Assembly (NCBI RefSeq): GCF_003790525.1
Contig: NZ_CP033635.1
Length of the DNA stretch: 64,000 bases
Strand: one strand, 5' to 3'
DNA from: Escherichia coli
GTDB lineage: Bacteria; Pseudomonadota; Gammaproteobacteria; Enterobacterales; Enterobacteriaceae
The notes under the pieces were generated by a model that saw only the letters and a list, made by a program, of their open reading frames with translations, was not told where the DNA came from and ran no database searches. Below, piece by piece: positions 23,985 to 57,375 of the stretch (position 1 is the first letter of the stretch; each line of letters starts with the position of its first letter). Both the position numbers and the translations under genes were made by a program.

Positions 23985-24030
23985 AAAACGATCAATAAGA
24001 CAGGTGTCGATCGTTGCCATCGATCGTTTG
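23985..24030 (+). promoter_or_regulatory. antigen 43 phase-variation switch: three clustered Dam GATC sites (OxyR operator region)
   Basis: GATC at 23990, 24009 and 24022, about 220 bp upstream of the flu start codon. Confidence 0.55.
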
Positions 24031-24242
24031 TAGTGGTTAATGGTCTGCGAAAAGGCAGCTGAATCTCTTCATCATGCATAACGGAATTGCACACAACGGA
24101 CTGATACTTCTCTGGCGGATGAGAGAGGGAAAGCATTTATGTCCGGGAAAAACCACTTTATCTGACCATGCTGTTTTGTACCTGCCGGTATCCACTTTTG
24201 TGGGTACCGGCTTTTTTATTCACCCTCTGTAAGGAAAAGCTG

Positions 24243-32240: not shown

Positions 32241-32316
32241 TGGTGGCCCCTGTTGGGTTTGAACCAACGACCAAGCGATTATGAGTCGCCTGCTCTAACC
32301 ACTGAGCTAAGGGGCC
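32241..32316 (-). tRNA. ileX: tRNA-Ile (anticodon CAU, lysidine-type), island integration site
   Basis: Reverse complement GGCCCCTTAGCTCAGTGGTTAGAGCAGGCGACTCATAATCGC...GGGGCCACCA; adjacent to mug as in E. coli. Confidence 0.85.
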
Positions 32317-51661: not shown

Positions 51662-53095
51662 ATGAAAGTAACGCTGCCAGAGTTTGAACGTGCAGGAGTG
51701 ATGGTGGTTGGTGATGTGATGCTGGATCGTTACTGGTACGGTCCCACCAGCCGTATCTCGCCGGAAGCGCCGGTGCCCGTGGTTAAAGTGAATACCATCG
51801 AAGAACGTCCGGGCGGCGCGGCTAACGTGGCGATGAATATCGCTTCTCTCGGTGCTAATGCACGCCTGGTCGGGTTGACGGGCATTGACGATGCAGCGCG
51901 CGCGCTGAGTAAATCTCTGGCCGACGTCAACGTCAAATGCGACTTCGTTTCTGTACCGACGCATCCGACTATCACCAAATTACGGGTGCTTTCCCGCAAC
52001 CAACAGCTGATTCGTCTGGATTTTGAAGAAGGTTTCGAAGGTGTTGATCCGCAACCGCTGCACGAACGGATTAATCAGGCGCTGAGTTCGATTGGCGCGC
52101 TGGTGCTTTCTGACTACGCCAAAGGTGCGCTGGCAAGCGTACAGCAGATGATCCAACTGGCGCGTAAAGCGGGTGTTCCGGTGCTGATTGATCCAAAAGG
52201 TACCGATTTTGAGCGCTACCGCGGCGCTACGCTGTTAACGCCGAATCTCTCGGAATTTGAAGCTGTTGTCGGTAAATGTAAGACCGAAGAAGAGATTGTT
52301 GAGCGCGGCATGAAACTAATTGCCGATTACGAACTCTCGGCTCTGTTAGTGACCCGTTCCGAACAGGGTATGTCGCTGCTGCAACCGGGTAAAGCGCCGC
52401 TGCATATGCCAACCCAGGCGCAGGAAGTGTATGACGTTACCGGTGCGGGCGACACGGTGATTGGCGTCCTGGCGGCAACGCTGGCAGCGGGTAATTCGCT
52501 GGAAGAAGCCTGCTTCTTTGCCAATGCGGCGGCTGGTGTGGTGGTCGGCAAACTGGGGACATCCACGGTTTCGCCGATCGAGCTGGAAAACGCAGTACGT
52601 GGACGTGCAGATACCGGCTTTGGCGTGATGACCGAAGAGGAACTGAAGCTTGCTGTAGCGGCAGCGCGTAAACGCGGTGAAAAAGTGGTGATGACCAATG
52701 GCGTCTTTGACATCCTGCACGCCGGACACGTCTCTTATCTGGCAAATGCCCGCAAACTGGGTGACCGTTTGATTGTCGCCGTCAACAGCGATGCCTCCAC
52801 CAAACGGCTGAAAGGGGATTCCCGCCCCGTTAACCCGCTTGAACAGCGTATGATTGTGCTGGGCGCACTGGAAGCGGTCGACTGGGTGGTGTCGTTTGAA
52901 GAAGACACGCCGCAGCGCTTGATCGCCGGGATCCTGCCAGACCTGCTGGTGAAAGGCGGCGATTATAAACCAGAAGAGATTGCCGGGAGTAAAGAAGTCT
53001 GGGCCAATGGTGGCGAAGTGCTGGTGCTCAACTTTGAAGACGGTTGCTCGACCACTAACATTATCAAGAAGATCCAACAGGATAAAAAAGGCTAA
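51662..53095 (+). CDS. hldE: bifunctional D-beta-D-heptose 7-phosphate kinase / heptose 1-phosphate adenylyltransferase
   Basis: 477 aa [27 protein letters not shown]... Confidence 0.9.
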
Positions 53096-53174
53096 CCGGA
53101 AAGCGCTTCACAGTTCTCGCGTTGTGCCGGATAGACCTATTGACGCTGTTGTTTTTTCAACCTAAAGTAAAGGA

Positions 53175-53320
53175 ACAAGGGTAAGGGAGGATTTCTCCCC
53201 CCTCTGATGAGTTGTTAGTAAGTCGGGAAACTTAACAGTAACAACACAACCAGTATGATGACGAACTTCATCATAACCCTTTCCTTCTATAAGGCCCCTT
53301 CCTCGGGAGGGGCTTTCCCG
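53175..53320 (+). ncRNA. sibD: Sib-family antisense RNA (antitoxin), copy 1
   Basis: Sigma70-like promoter TTGACG-17bp-TAAAGT at 53140-53168; fully antisense to ibs ORF; hairpin plus U-rich tract about 53293-53322; ends approximate. Confidence 0.5.
53215..53274 (-). CDS. ibsD: Ibs-family 19-aa hydrophobic type I toxin, copy 1
   Basis: Manual minus-strand translation MMKFVIILVVLLLLSFPTY; below ORF-track cut-off. Confidence 0.75.
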   Translation of the reverse strand: MMKFVIILVVLLLLSFPTY

Positions 53321-53550
53321 TTTCAGCCCCTTGCTGACTCCCCGATTGTTGATGAGCGCCAGACCCCGCGCAATGCTTTCTCTTATGCAGTTTTCTCTTC
53401 CCCGAGTCGGCTCGCAAAACGCTGTAACAACCTGATCATTTGTACTTTTTAGCAGAACGCAGATATAAAAAATCCCCGGCTTTTTGGGCCAGGGATATGT
53501 GTTAATGAAACCTTCTTGACGCTGTTGTTTTTTCAACCTAAAGTAAAGGA

Positions 53551-53696
53551 ACAAGGGTGAGGGAGGATTTCTCCCCCCTCTGATTGGCTGTTAATAAGTG
53601 GCGAAACTTACAAGTAACAACACAATCAGTATGATGACGAGCTTCATCATAACCCTTTCCTTCTGTAAGGCCCCTTCCTCGGGAGGGGCTTTCCCG
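53551..53696 (+). ncRNA. sibE: Sib-family antisense RNA (antitoxin), copy 2
   Basis: Same promoter (TTGACG 53516-53521, TAAAGT 53539-53544) and terminator architecture as copy 1; ends approximate. Confidence 0.5.
53591..53650 (-). CDS. ibsE: Ibs-family 19-aa hydrophobic type I toxin, copy 2
   Basis: Manual minus-strand translation MMKLVIILIVLLLVSFATY. Confidence 0.75.
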   Translation of the reverse strand: MMKLVIILIVLLLVSFATY

Positions 53697-53888
53697 TTTC
53701 AGCCCTTTGCTGACTCCCCGATTGTTGATGAGCGCCGGACCCCGCGCAACGCTTTCCCTGAGGCAGTTTTGCCTTCCCCGAGCGGTCACGCAAAACGTTG
53801 CAACGACCTGATCATTTGCAGTTTTTAGCGGAACGCAGATATAAAAAATCCCCGGCTTTTTGTGCCAGGGATGTTCATAGCTGAAAAT

Positions 53889-55550
53889 TTATTCTACGTT
53901 TTCGGCGACGGGAGTTGTTGAGGTTAAGGGTGAAGTCAATGCAGCCAGTGAGCCGCCTGAAACGCCAATTTCATTGAGCAAGGAGTCAATCAGCGGTGCC
54001 TGTGTGCGGTAAGAAAGGGCGGCAGACAATGCCTGTTCTGCCAGGTTTCCGCCACTAACGCTGCCTGATGCCGCATCCCCCGCAGCACCACCTCGGTTTA
54101 ATCCATCGACCTGAATAATCTTAATGCCGTCAATGGACTTCATCGGCTCAACGGATTTCTCTATTACTGCAGGTAACGACTGTAATAGCGCCAGTTTGAA
54201 TTTAAGGCTGGTTTGCTCGTCAGAAAGTACGTTGATAGCGTCGTTCAGCGCACGTTGCGCTTCTGCTTCCGCCAGGCCTTTTTTGCGTGTTGCTTCGGCT
54301 AACTCAACGATCGCCGCCGCCTGCATCTCTGCGGCTTCTTTCTCTGCTTTCGCCCGCACGGTCAGTTCAACCGCTTTGGTTTCTGCATCCTGCGCGGCAG
54401 CGATTAGGGCAACTTGTTTAGCACGATCGGCTTCTGCGGTCTGGCGAGTGGTTTCTACGTTTTGCTGGGCGCTTACCGCTTCTGCAAGTGCAAGGTTGGC
54501 ACGCGCTTCCGCTTGTGACTGCTGTTCCGATTTGGCGGCAATAGCGATCGATTTCGTCTGGTTGGCGATTTCGGTGACCTGCTGTTGTTCGATCTCTTTA
54601 ATGCGAACTTCACGTTCAGCTTCAACTTTTCTTGAGCGGACGGCCTGTTCGCGGTCGATTTCTGTTTCCTGAATCTGTCGTTCAGCCAGAATTCGCGTCT
54701 GCTCTGCTTCACGACGACGTTCAGCTTCAAAAGCCGCAATTTTCGCATTCTGCTCAGCGGTACGGGTTTTAACCTGCTGCTCCTGCTCAAGCGTCATAAA
54801 CGCTTCTTGTTGTTCAATCTCCAACTTGCGCGAAAGTGCATCACGGTTTTTCTCACGCACCGCAACTTCTACATCCTGTTCAACTTCGTTACGTTCGCGA
54901 CGACGGCGCTCCGTCTCCTGCGTCAGCTTGGTTAAACCTTCGGCGTCAAAGGCGTTGTTAGGATTGAAATGTTCTTTCGACGTCTGGTTAAAGTTGGTAA
55001 GTGAAACGCTTTCCAGTTCCAGGCCGTTTTTCGACAGATCTTCAGCAACGGTATTTTGTACGCCCTGCACGAAGTTCTCGCGGGTATCCTGTAACTCATG
55101 CATGGTCATTTGCGCAGCTGTTGCACGGAGGGCATCGACAAATTTATCTTCAACCAACATACGTAAGTCTTCAGGCGACAGGGTGCGTTGCCCCAGCGTC
55201 TGGGCAGCGGTGGCGATCCCTTCTACTGAAGGTTTTACCCGCACAAAGAAAGCGACAACGACATCGACGCGCATACGATCTTTCGTAATCAGGCTATCAA
55301 TGGTTGAGCGGCTGACTTCCAGCTTCAGAGTATTCATATTGATGGGGATTATTTCATGGAAGATCGGCATCACGATTGCGCCACCGCTCATTACCACTTT
55401 TTGCCCACCTAAACCAGTACGAACAAAAGCTTGCTCTGCCGAAGCGCGACGATAGAGCCTGGCGAAAATAATTCCAATAATAAACAGAATGCATACGGCA
55501 ATAATCGCGGTAAACATCCAGGAGGGCACAGAATTAACAATATCATCCAT
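53889..55550 (-). CDS. yqiK: flotillin/band-7 (SPFH) family inner membrane protein YqiK
   Basis: 553 aa, N-terminal TM, SPFH domain, long coiled-coil. Confidence 0.85.
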   Translation of the reverse strand: MDDIVNSVPSWMFTAIIAVCILFIIGIIFARLYRRASAEQAFVRTGLGGQKVVMSGGAIVMPIFHEIIPINMNTLKLEVSRSTIDSLITKDRMRVDVVVAFFVRVKPSVEGIATAAQTLGQRTLSPEDLRMLVEDKFVDALRATAAQMTMHELQDTRENFVQGVQNTVAEDLSKNGLELESVSLTNFNQTSKEHFNPNNAFDAEGLTKLTQETERRRRERNEVEQDVEVAVREKNRDALSRKLEIEQQEAFMTLEQEQQVKTRTAEQNAKIAAFEAERRREAEQTRILAERQIQETEIDREQAVRSRKVEAEREVRIKEIEQQQVTEIANQTKSIAIAAKSEQQSQAEARANLALAEAVSAQQNVETTRQTAEADRAKQVALIAAAQDAETKAVELTVRAKAEKEAAEMQAAAIVELAEATRKKGLAEAEAQRALNDAINVLSDEQTSLKFKLALLQSLPAVIEKSVEPMKSIDGIKIIQVDGLNRGGAAGDAASGSVSGGNLAEQALSAALSYRTQAPLIDSLLNEIGVSGGSLAALTSPLTSTTPVAENVE

Positions 55551-57124: not shown

Positions 57125-57375
57125 GAATCCGCTTATTCTCAGGGCGGGGCGAAATTCCCCACCGGCGGTAAATCAACTCAGTTGAAAGCCCGCGAGCGCT
57201 TTGGGTGCGAACTCAAAGGACAGCAGATCCGGTGTAATTCCGGGGCCGACGGTTAGAGTCCGGATGGGAGAGAGTAACGATTCTGTCGGGCATGGACCCG
57301 CTCACGTTATTTTGGCTATATGCCGCCACTCCTAAGACTGCCCTGATTCTGGTAACCATAATTTTAGTAAGGTTT
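57125..57375 (+). ncRNA. FMN riboswitch (RFN element) in ribB leader
   Basis: Conserved aptamer core AGGGCGGGGCGAAATTCCCCACCGGCGGTAAATCAACTCAGTTGAAAGCCCGCGAGCGC...CCGGGGCCGACGGTTAGAGTCCGGATGGGAGAG upstream of ribB. Confidence 0.75.

What the first reader, a model, noticed from the sequence alone, without database searches (positions are those of the whole stretch)
53140..53890. Duplicated ibs/sib type I toxin-antitoxin modules in a 375-bp tandem repeat
Each repeat unit carries a 19-aa hydrophobic minus-strand ORF (MMKFVIILVVLLLLSFPTY and MMKLVIILIVLLLVSFATY) and, on the opposite strand, a strong promoter (TTGACG-17-TAAAGT) and terminator that would give a ~145-nt fully antisense RNA. This matches the Ibs/Sib family located between yqiK and hldE in E. 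coli. The long ORF-track calls across this region are spurious.
Basis: partly seen in the sequence, partly recalled or inferred. Interest (0 to 1): 0.4.

Follow-up and report, generated by a model that had tools for sequence, protein, structure and literature searches.

The report
Known E. coli ibsE/sibE–ibsD/sibD toxin–antitoxin pair
This is the well-known tandem pair of Ibs/Sib type I toxin-antitoxin modules (sibE/ibsE and sibD/ibsD) in the hldE–yqiK gap of Escherichia coli, each a 19-residue membrane toxin gene silenced by a 144-nt antisense RNA from the opposite strand; it is real but ordinary.

Summary
A 376-bp unit is repeated 1.9 times at 53140-53872, and the copies are about 92% identical. 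Each unit matches the Rfam SIB_RNA model on the + strand (142 and 144 bits; cut-off 56). Each also has a 19-codon ORF on the - strand that matches Pfam Ibs_toxin (44 and 40 bits; cut-off 27).

The window is E. coli. The locus is 100% identical to strain CREC-544 and is found in 5425 of 5426 complete E. coli genomes. It lies between hldE and yqiK, as in K-12. Alignment to the K-12 annotation gives unit 1 = SibE (53175-53318) with ibsE (53274..53215; L4F relative to K-12). Unit 2 = SibD (53551-53694) with ibsD (53650..53591; A18T).

The rest of each unit holds the ibs promoter (TTGCGC-17-AACAAT, - strand), placed here from published mapping in K-12, and a - strand terminator hairpin. The hairpin next to yqiK is positioned as its terminator, and the other is the duplicated copy.

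The longer ORFs across the region are spurious: they have no family match and are frameshifted in K-12.

The mechanism comes from published K-12 work. Sib pairs with its cognate ibs mRNA, blocks translation, and RNase III cleaves the duplex. Ibs overexpression depolarises the membrane.

Novelty: already known. Minor extras are a one-versus-two copy-number polymorphism and a mosaic history of the promoter segment.

The parts
53140..53515 (.). Repeat unit 1 (376 bp): the sibE/ibsE module, next to hldE
   Evidence: TRF; unit alignment; alignment to K-12
53516..53875 (.). Repeat unit 2: the sibD/ibsD module, next to yqiK. Similarity to unit 1 fades after about 53872
53140..53168 (+). sibE promoter-like site, TTGACG-17-TAAAGT
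   Evidence: 9 of 12; it lies 7 nt upstream of the mapped Sib 5' end
53175..53318 (+). SibE antitoxin RNA, 144 nt. The terminator hairpin is about 53291-53316
   Evidence: Rfam RF00113, 142.2 bits; ends transferred from K-12 sibE b4611; fold -51.8 kcal/mol, z = -3.8
53215..53274 (-). ibsE: 19 codons plus stop, MMKFVIILVVLLLLSFPTY (L4F relative to K-12 IbsE)
   Evidence: Pfam PF13956 44.1 bits; RefSeq CDS WP_001387082.1 in the identical CREC-544 locus
53277..53286 (-). ibsE Shine-Dalgarno region (AAGGAAAGGG). Its G-rich end lies a few nt upstream of the ATG
   Evidence: read from the sequence
53345..53373 (-). ibsE promoter, by homology to the ibsD promoter: TTGCGC (53373..53368), 17-nt spacer, AACAAT (53350..53345). 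Inferred start about 53338, giving a 164-nt mRNA down to about 53175
   Evidence: with the construct coordinates and primer sequences of Han et al. 2010 (PMC2943612). Inferred for ibsE
53465..53496 (-). Minus-strand intrinsic terminator hairpin plus T-run. This is the duplicated copy of the hairpin next to yqiK and lies between the two modules
   Evidence: 9-bp stem, 6 G-C pairs, TTTTTTAT tail
53516..53544 (+). sibD promoter-like site, TTGACG-17-TAAAGT
53551..53694 (+). SibD antitoxin RNA, 144 nt
   Evidence: Rfam RF00113, 144.4 bits; ends from K-12 sibD b4447; fold -57.4 kcal/mol, z = -4.9
53591..53650 (-). ibsD: 19 codons plus stop, MMKLVIILIVLLLVSFATY (A18T relative to K-12 IbsD)
   Evidence: Pfam PF13956 40.1 bits; RefSeq CDS WP_100249717.1
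53653..53662 (-). ibsD Shine-Dalgarno region
53721..53749 (-). ibsD promoter: TTGCGC (53749..53744), 17-nt spacer, AACAAT (53726..53721). Start about 53714
   Evidence: The -21 primer anchor and the +165 end of the pBAD-ibsD construct in PMC2943612 both place +1 at 53714
53841..53872 (-). Minus-strand intrinsic terminator directly downstream of the yqiK stop codon (53889-53891)

Best explanation
These are two adjacent, independently working type I toxin-antitoxin modules of the Ibs/Sib family. They are the E. coli sibE/ibsE and sibD/ibsD loci in the hldE-yqiK intergenic region.

In each 376-bp unit a weak minus-strand promoter (TTGCGC-17-AACAAT) gives an ibs mRNA of about 164 nt. That mRNA carries a Shine-Dalgarno site and a 19-codon ORF for a very hydrophobic single-helix peptide. 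On the plus strand, a promoter (TTGACG-17-TAAAGT) and a G+C-rich terminator hairpin give a structured 144-nt Sib RNA. Sib is perfectly complementary to all of the ibs mRNA except its first 20 nt, so it covers the ribosome-binding site and the whole ORF.

Sib pairs with its cognate ibs mRNA. Pairing starts at two recognition regions: TRD1, inside and just past the 3' part of the ORF, and TRD2, at the translation-initiation region. This blocks translation and yields a duplex that RNase III cleaves, so toxin is not made while Sib is present.

If Ibs is made in excess, it inserts in the inner membrane, dissipates membrane potential or ATP, and stops growth.

The two modules are kept apart by sequence. 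Nine of the 12 differences between SibE and SibD cluster in Sib nt 35-62 (the TRD1 region), and one lies in the TRD2 motif. Each Sib should therefore silence only its own ibs.

The terminator hairpin at the end of each unit is positioned to stop yqiK transcripts (hairpin next to yqiK) and ibsD transcripts (duplicated copy) from running into the next module.

Shown here: the sequences, family membership, synteny, complementarity and the location of the differences. Taken from the literature on K-12: transcript ends, repression, RNase III involvement and toxicity. Inferred: that these near-identical alleles behave the same way, and the insulating role of the duplicated terminator.
For: - Rfam SIB_RNA matches both units full-length, at 142.2 and 144.4 bits against a gathering score of 56.
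- Pfam Ibs_toxin scores 44.1 and 40.1 bits against a cut-off of 27, over profile positions 1-19 of 19.
- The peptides are 18/19 identical to K-12 IbsE and IbsD. The Sib cores are 140/144 and 140/145 identical to K-12 sibE and sibD.
- Synteny is glnE-hldE-[E unit]-[D unit]-yqiK-yqiJ. This is the same as K-12, where sibD, ibsD, sibE and ibsE are annotated.
- RefSeq annotates both ORFs as 'type I toxin-antitoxin system Ibs family toxin' in the 100% identical CREC-544 locus.
- The locus is present in 5425 of 5426 complete E. coli genomes.
- Both Sib RNAs fold much better than shuffled sequence (z = -3.8 and -4.9; 0 of 200 shuffles as stable) and have a 3' terminator hairpin.
- The promoter-like site lies 7 nt upstream of the mapped 5' end.
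- For the ibs promoter and start site, two independent anchors from Han et al. 2010 (-21 primer and +165 end) agree on 53714 for ibsD.
- The E/D differences cluster in the TRD1 region. Non-cognate duplex energy there is -28 to -35 kcal/mol, against -63 for cognate pairs.
- Literature. Two recognition domains, cognate-only repression and RNase III cleavage of the duplex: PMC2943612. ibsD-sibD dsRNA captured in vivo, and the toxin transcript stabilised in rnc mutants: PMC7373196. IbsC overexpression depolarises the membrane within minutes and kills: review PMC8309996, citing Fozo et al. 2008. Salmonella IbsA binds Fo subunits a and b and lowers ATP: bioRxiv 10.1101/2025.05.26.656083.
Against: - Nothing here tests expression in this strain.
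- The Sib promoter matches the consensus at only 9 of 12 positions, and the consensus terminator scan missed the Sib terminator.
- The minus-strand promoter scan did not report the ibs promoter (8 of 12 by my count). Its placement depends on my reading of primer sequences and construct coordinates in PMC2943612, because the paper's figure was not available.
- The ibs mRNA 3' end was only estimated from transcript length in that paper.
- Both peptides carry one substitution relative to K-12 (L4F and A18T) whose effect on toxicity is untested. In IbsC, N-terminal residues were reported dispensable apart from V5, while residues 6-19 were needed. Thr18 is the native residue of IbsE.
- The primary paper (Fozo et al. 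2008) could not be read here.
- The physiological role of chromosomal Ibs/Sib modules in E. coli is still unsettled.
Confidence: 0.95

Rival explanations
1. One of the two units is a decaying, non-functional duplicate, so only one toxin-antitoxin module works.
For: About 28% of complete E. coli genomes lack the unit1/unit2 junction. Strains such as Rb-50 and O18:H1 CFSAN067215 carry a single unit, so the second copy is dispensable. The promoter and upstream segment of unit 1 is unusually divergent, at 129/150 against K-12 E.
Against: - Both units keep an intact 19-codon ORF, start codon, Shine-Dalgarno site, both promoters' hexamers and the terminator hairpins.
- Both score alike against the Rfam and Pfam models.
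- Each core is 97% identical to its K-12 ortholog but only 90-92% identical to its neighbour. That is the pattern of two copies each conserved in its own right.
- The differences between the two ibs ORFs leave both peptides hydrophobic and full-length.
Confidence: 0.04
2. The region encodes longer proteins instead of, or in addition to, the TA modules. Candidates are the 65-aa + strand ORFs at 53255-53452 and 53631-53828, and the 130-aa and 83-aa - strand ORFs at 53162-53554 and 53538-53789.
For: The ORFs exist mechanically. The two 65-aa ORFs are paralogous and open in both units and in Rb-50.
Against: - No Pfam family reaches its cut-off. The best is 15 bits against a cut-off of 27, to a herpesvirus glycoprotein family.
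- K-12 has 1-nt indels in both units that shift these frames, so the K-12 translations diverge or are cut short.
- The + strand ORFs run straight through the Sib terminator hairpin.
- RefSeq annotates no CDS there in either K-12 or CREC-544.
- That the ORFs are open in both units is expected from the 92% DNA identity alone.
Confidence: 0.01

Closest known systems
E. coli K-12 sibE/ibsE (b4611/b4666) and sibD/ibsD (b4447/b4664)
   Same: - Same intergenic region (hldE-yqiK), same order and same relative strands.
- Sib cores 140/144 and 140/145 identical; peptides 18/19 identical.
- Same promoter hexamers, apart from TAAAGT here versus TAGAGT in the K-12 sibE -10 element.
- Same terminator hairpins.
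   Different: - Allelic differences only: IbsE L4F, IbsD A18T, and SibD 144 nt instead of 145 nt.
- The 150-bp ibs promoter/upstream segment of unit 1 is 86% identical to K-12 E and has a mosaic relationship to the other units.
- The whole intergenic region is 92% identical to K-12, against 97.3% for hldE.
sibC/ibsC of E. coli K-12, the experimentally dissected member (Han et al. 2010, PMC2943612)
   Same: Same family and architecture: a 19-aa toxin, a fully overlapping Sib of about 140 nt, and two target-recognition domains in the variable regions. The E/D differences here fall in the same two regions.
   Different: It is a different locus and a paralogous sequence. The TRD analysis was done on SibC and SibD, not on SibE.
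Other tandemly duplicated chromosomal type I TA loci (ldr/rdl long direct repeats; zorO-orzO/zorP-orzP)
   Same: Small hydrophobic toxin plus an antisense or partly antisense sRNA, duplicated in tandem within one intergenic region (PMC2887945).
   Different: The toxin and RNA families are unrelated. In zor/orz and ldr/rdl the sRNA overlaps only the 5' part of the mRNA, whereas Sib covers the entire ORF.

Membership tests
Sib RNA (Rfam RF00113) | Sequence and structure match to the family covariance model at or above the gathering score | tested here: met
   142.2 and 144.4 bits against 56, model positions 1-147 of 147, E = 2e-29 and 6e-30
Sib RNA (Rfam RF00113) | Encoded exactly opposite an ibs ORF, covering the ORF and its ribosome-binding site | tested here: met
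   The ibs ORF corresponds to Sib nt 41-100 and the SD complement to nt 103-112
Sib RNA (Rfam RF00113) | Own promoter and terminator giving a discrete RNA of about 140 nt | tested here: met
   A promoter-like site lies 7 nt upstream of the K-12-mapped 5' end. There is an 11-bp 3' hairpin. The consensus terminator scan did not report it
Sib RNA (Rfam RF00113) | The RNA is expressed and represses its cognate ibs | not testable with these tools
   Published for K-12 SibC and SibD (PMC2943612) and for the ibsD-sibD duplex in vivo (PMC7373196). Not measured for this strain
Ibs toxin (Pfam PF13956) | Match to the family HMM at or above the gathering score over the full 19 residues | tested here: met
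   44.1 and 40.1 bits against 27, profile positions 1-19 of 19. Three upstream in-frame codons were added to reach the tool's 20-residue minimum
Ibs toxin (Pfam PF13956) | 18-19-aa hydrophobic peptide with start codon and Shine-Dalgarno site | tested here: met
   MMKFVIILVVLLLLSFPTY and MMKLVIILIVLLLVSFATY, each preceded by AAGGAAAGGG
Ibs toxin (Pfam PF13956) | Toxic on overexpression (membrane depolarisation or ATP drop) | not testable with these tools
   Reported for IbsC (review PMC8309996) and Salmonella IbsA (bioRxiv 10.1101/2025.05.26.656083). These exact alleles were not tested
sibD/sibE locus of E. coli | Position between yqiK and hldE, as two tandem units | tested here: met
   Annotated regions of CREC-544 and K-12 MG1655; colinear alignment 746/812

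The most novel reading that the evidence does not exclude
The most novel reading not excluded concerns population variation at this locus. About 72% of complete E. coli genomes carry the two-unit junction and about 28% do not. The cores are conserved by position, while the ibs promoter/upstream segments are mosaic. One could read this as ongoing unequal crossing-over and gene conversion that re-assorts toxin/antitoxin cores with different regulatory regions, so that strains differ in when each Ibs toxin is made. This would be a population-genetic refinement of a known system, not a new system. Variable copy number of ibs/sib among enterobacteria has already been described in general terms (PMC2887945).
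Probability: 0.15. Interest if true: 0.2.

Novelty: already known. Interest (0 to 1): 0.07.

Why it matters
It matters little beyond correct annotation. These 19-codon genes and their antisense RNAs are easily missed or over-called by ORF finders, so it is useful that the region is read as two Ibs/Sib modules and not as long ORFs. The exact coordinates, the E/D assignment and the two allelic peptide variants can go straight into an annotation. The copy-number polymorphism and the local excess of divergence are small leads for anyone studying how chromosomal type I toxin-antitoxin repeats evolve.

Tried and rejected
- Reading Fozo et al. 2008 (DOI and PMC2597788) failed because the paper is not held. 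Its results are cited only through later papers.
- Pfam cannot scan a 19-aa peptide. I added three upstream in-frame codons to reach the minimum length, and the match still covers only the 19 real residues.
- The consensus scan did not report the Sib terminators or the ibs promoters. I placed them from folding, the K-12 annotation and the published construct coordinates.
- I considered that the long ORFs might be genes and rejected it.
- I considered that one unit might be a dead copy and rejected it as unlikely.
- I assumed the whole window would be colinear with CREC-544. It is not. That strain lacks the mobile-element-rich island found in the first ~32 kb of the window.
- I did not use the large protein, metagenome or structure searches, because the identification was already unambiguous.

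Full report
**Observation**

The sequence at 53140-53890 contains a tandem repeat. TRF reports it at 53140-53872, with period 376, 1.9 copies, 91% matches, no indels and score 1254. A direct alignment of 53140-53515 with 53516-53890 shows about 92% identity up to about 53872, after which similarity fades.

A scan for short ORFs finds the two quoted minus-strand ORFs exactly: 53274..53215 (MMKFVIILVVLLLLSFPTY) and 53650..53591 (MMKLVIILIVLLLVSFATY).

The + strand motif TTGACG-17-TAAAGT occurs at 53140-53168 and 53516-53544, matching the consensus at 9 of 12 positions. In total, 4 promoter-like sites were found, against 0.8 expected in shuffles.

**Identity**

A scan of the whole window against Rfam gives two full-length SIB_RNA (RF00113) matches on the + strand. 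They lie at 53140-53289 (142.2 bits) and 53516-53665 (144.4 bits), against a gathering score of 56.

The two peptides were padded with three upstream in-frame codons to reach the tool's minimum length. Both match Pfam PF13956 Ibs_toxin over profile positions 1-19 of 19, at 44.1 and 40.1 bits against a cut-off of 27.

The 805-bp intergenic region is 100% identical to E. coli CREC-544. It is found in 5425 of 5426 complete E. coli genomes. In CREC-544, RefSeq annotates both ORFs as Ibs family toxins between hldE and yqiK. In K-12 MG1655 the same gap carries sibD/ibsD and sibE/ibsE.

The window runs in the opposite direction to the K-12 record. The order is hldE (+, 51662-53095), unit 1, unit 2, then yqiK (-, 55550..53889).

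Aligning the gap with K-12 gives 746 of 812 identical positions. This transfers the annotated RNA ends as follows:
- SibE = 53175-53318
- SibD = 53551-53694

Unit 1 is therefore the E module, with IbsE 18/19 identical to K-12 (L4F). Unit 2 is the D module, with IbsD 18/19 identical (A18T).

**Anatomy of a unit**

Each 144-nt Sib RNA folds far better than shuffled controls: -51.8 and -57.4 kcal/mol, z = -3.8 and -4.9, with 0 of 200 shuffles as stable. Each ends in an 11-bp G+C-rich hairpin followed by UUUCC. The simple terminator scan missed this hairpin because the T-run is interrupted.

In Sib numbering, the ibs ORF with its stop codon is the complement of nt 41-100, and the Shine-Dalgarno sequence (AAGGAAAGGG) is the complement of nt 103-112. 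Sib therefore covers the ribosome-binding site, the whole ORF and 40 nt beyond the stop codon.

Han et al. 2010 (PMC2943612) mapped the ibsC and ibsD starts by primer extension and built pBAD-ibsD from -21 to +165. The two primer sequences fix -21 at window 53735 and +165 opposite SibD +1. Both anchors give +1 at about 53714 and an mRNA of 164 nt in this allele.

Upstream of that start lies TTGCGC-17-AACAAT, at 53749..53721. The same hexamers occur in unit 1 at 53373..53345, implying an ibsE start near 53338. This last step is inferred by homology.

The ibs mRNA thus has a 20-nt 5' overhang beyond the Sib complement, similar to the 18 nt reported for ibsC.

Near the end of each unit sits a minus-strand intrinsic terminator, at 53496..53465 and 53872..53841 (9-bp stem, T-run). 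The second lies directly downstream of the yqiK stop codon. The first is its duplicated copy between the two modules. I infer that it stops ibsD transcripts from reading into the ibsE module.

**Mechanism**

The mechanism is taken from published K-12 work.

- Sib RNAs repress only their cognate ibs mRNAs. They do so through two independent recognition domains: TRD1, whose target lies in the ORF, and TRD2, whose target lies in the translation-initiation region. Both sit in the variable parts of the family. The full duplex is an RNase III substrate (PMC2943612).
- ibsD-sibD double-stranded RNA was captured in vivo, and the toxin transcript is stabilised in rnc mutants (PMC7373196).
- IbsC overexpression depolarises the membrane within minutes and kills (review PMC8309996, citing Fozo et al. 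2008).
- A 2025 preprint reports that Salmonella IbsA binds Fo subunits a and b and lowers ATP.

In this window, SibE and SibD differ at 12 of 144 positions. Nine of these fall in nt 35-62 and one at nt 115, inside the UCCUUCUGU motif that Han et al. swapped. Predicted duplex energy for nt 30-66 drops from about -63 kcal/mol for cognate pairs to -28 to -35 for non-cognate pairs. This fits cognate-only silencing of two independent modules.

**Long ORFs**

The mechanical ORFs across the region are 65 aa on the + strand (53255-53452 and 53631-53828), and 130 and 83 aa on the - strand.

- None has a Pfam match near its cut-off.
- None is annotated in RefSeq.
- All are broken or shifted in K-12 by 1-nt indels in each unit.

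**Side observations**

A 40-nt probe across the unit1/unit2 junction is found in 3925 of 5426 genomes, and twice in 15 of them. Strains Rb-50 and O18:H1 CFSAN067215 have a single unit between hldE and yqiK. In Rb-50 that unit has an E-type core identical to window unit 1 and a D-type tail next to yqiK. This is what a deletion by unequal crossing-over would leave, although an ancestral single copy is not excluded.

The Sib/ibs cores group by position: E with E, and D with D, at 97%. The 150-bp promoter/upstream segment is mosaic instead.

Relative to K-12, hldE is 97.3% identical, the gap 92%, and yqiK 93.7%. The 400 nt at the 3' end of yqiK are only about 87% identical.

**Verdict**

This is a correct reading of a textbook locus. 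It is already known and of low interest. Its value is precise annotation.

Noticed in passing
window 53491-53530 (unit1/unit2 junction); loci L003 and L004: Copy-number polymorphism. The junction 40-mer is present in 3925 of 5426 complete E. coli genomes, and twice in 15 of them. Rb-50 and O18:H1 CFSAN067215 have a single ibs/sib unit between hldE and yqiK. In Rb-50 the unit has an E-type core and a D-type tail.
   Followed up: partly
window 53320-53470 and 53696-53846: The ibs promoter/upstream segments have a mosaic relationship. K-12 unit E is closer to window unit D (139/150) than to window unit E (129/150), whereas the Sib/ibs cores group strictly by position. This suggests gene conversion or recombination between units.
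   Followed up: partly
window 53889-54290 (3' end of yqiK) and 53096-53888: There is a local excess of divergence from K-12. The 400 nt at the 3' end of yqiK are about 87% identical and the intergenic region 92%, against 97.3% for hldE.
   Followed up: no
window 53232-53259 and 53607-53635, + strand: A second promoter-like site lies inside each sib gene (TTAACA-16-TATGAT, 10 of 12; CTTACA-17-TATGAT, 9 of 12). It overlaps the complement of the ibs start codons and could give a short 3' Sib fragment, or it could be coincidental.
   Followed up: no
window 1 to ~32240, with tRNA at 32241-32316 (-): A mobile-element-rich island abuts a tRNA with a CAU anticodon (annotated tRNA-Ile in CREC-544, the ileX position). 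Its contents:
- a group II intron with ltrA (domain V-VI hit at 11695-11781);
- an IS3-family element with an ALIL frameshift pseudoknot (9052-9168);
- IS1414;
- a type I R-M subunit M gene;
- an Ag43/Cah autotransporter gene;
- a GTPase gene;
- an Rfam IS102 RNA hit at 23988-24224.
CREC-544, which is identical at the ibs/sib locus, lacks this island.
   Followed up: partly
window 57131-57279 (+): An FMN riboswitch (120.9 bits) lies upstream of the 217-aa ORF at 57383-58036. From my own knowledge of the K-12 map, not checked here, this is the expected position of ribB.
   Followed up: no
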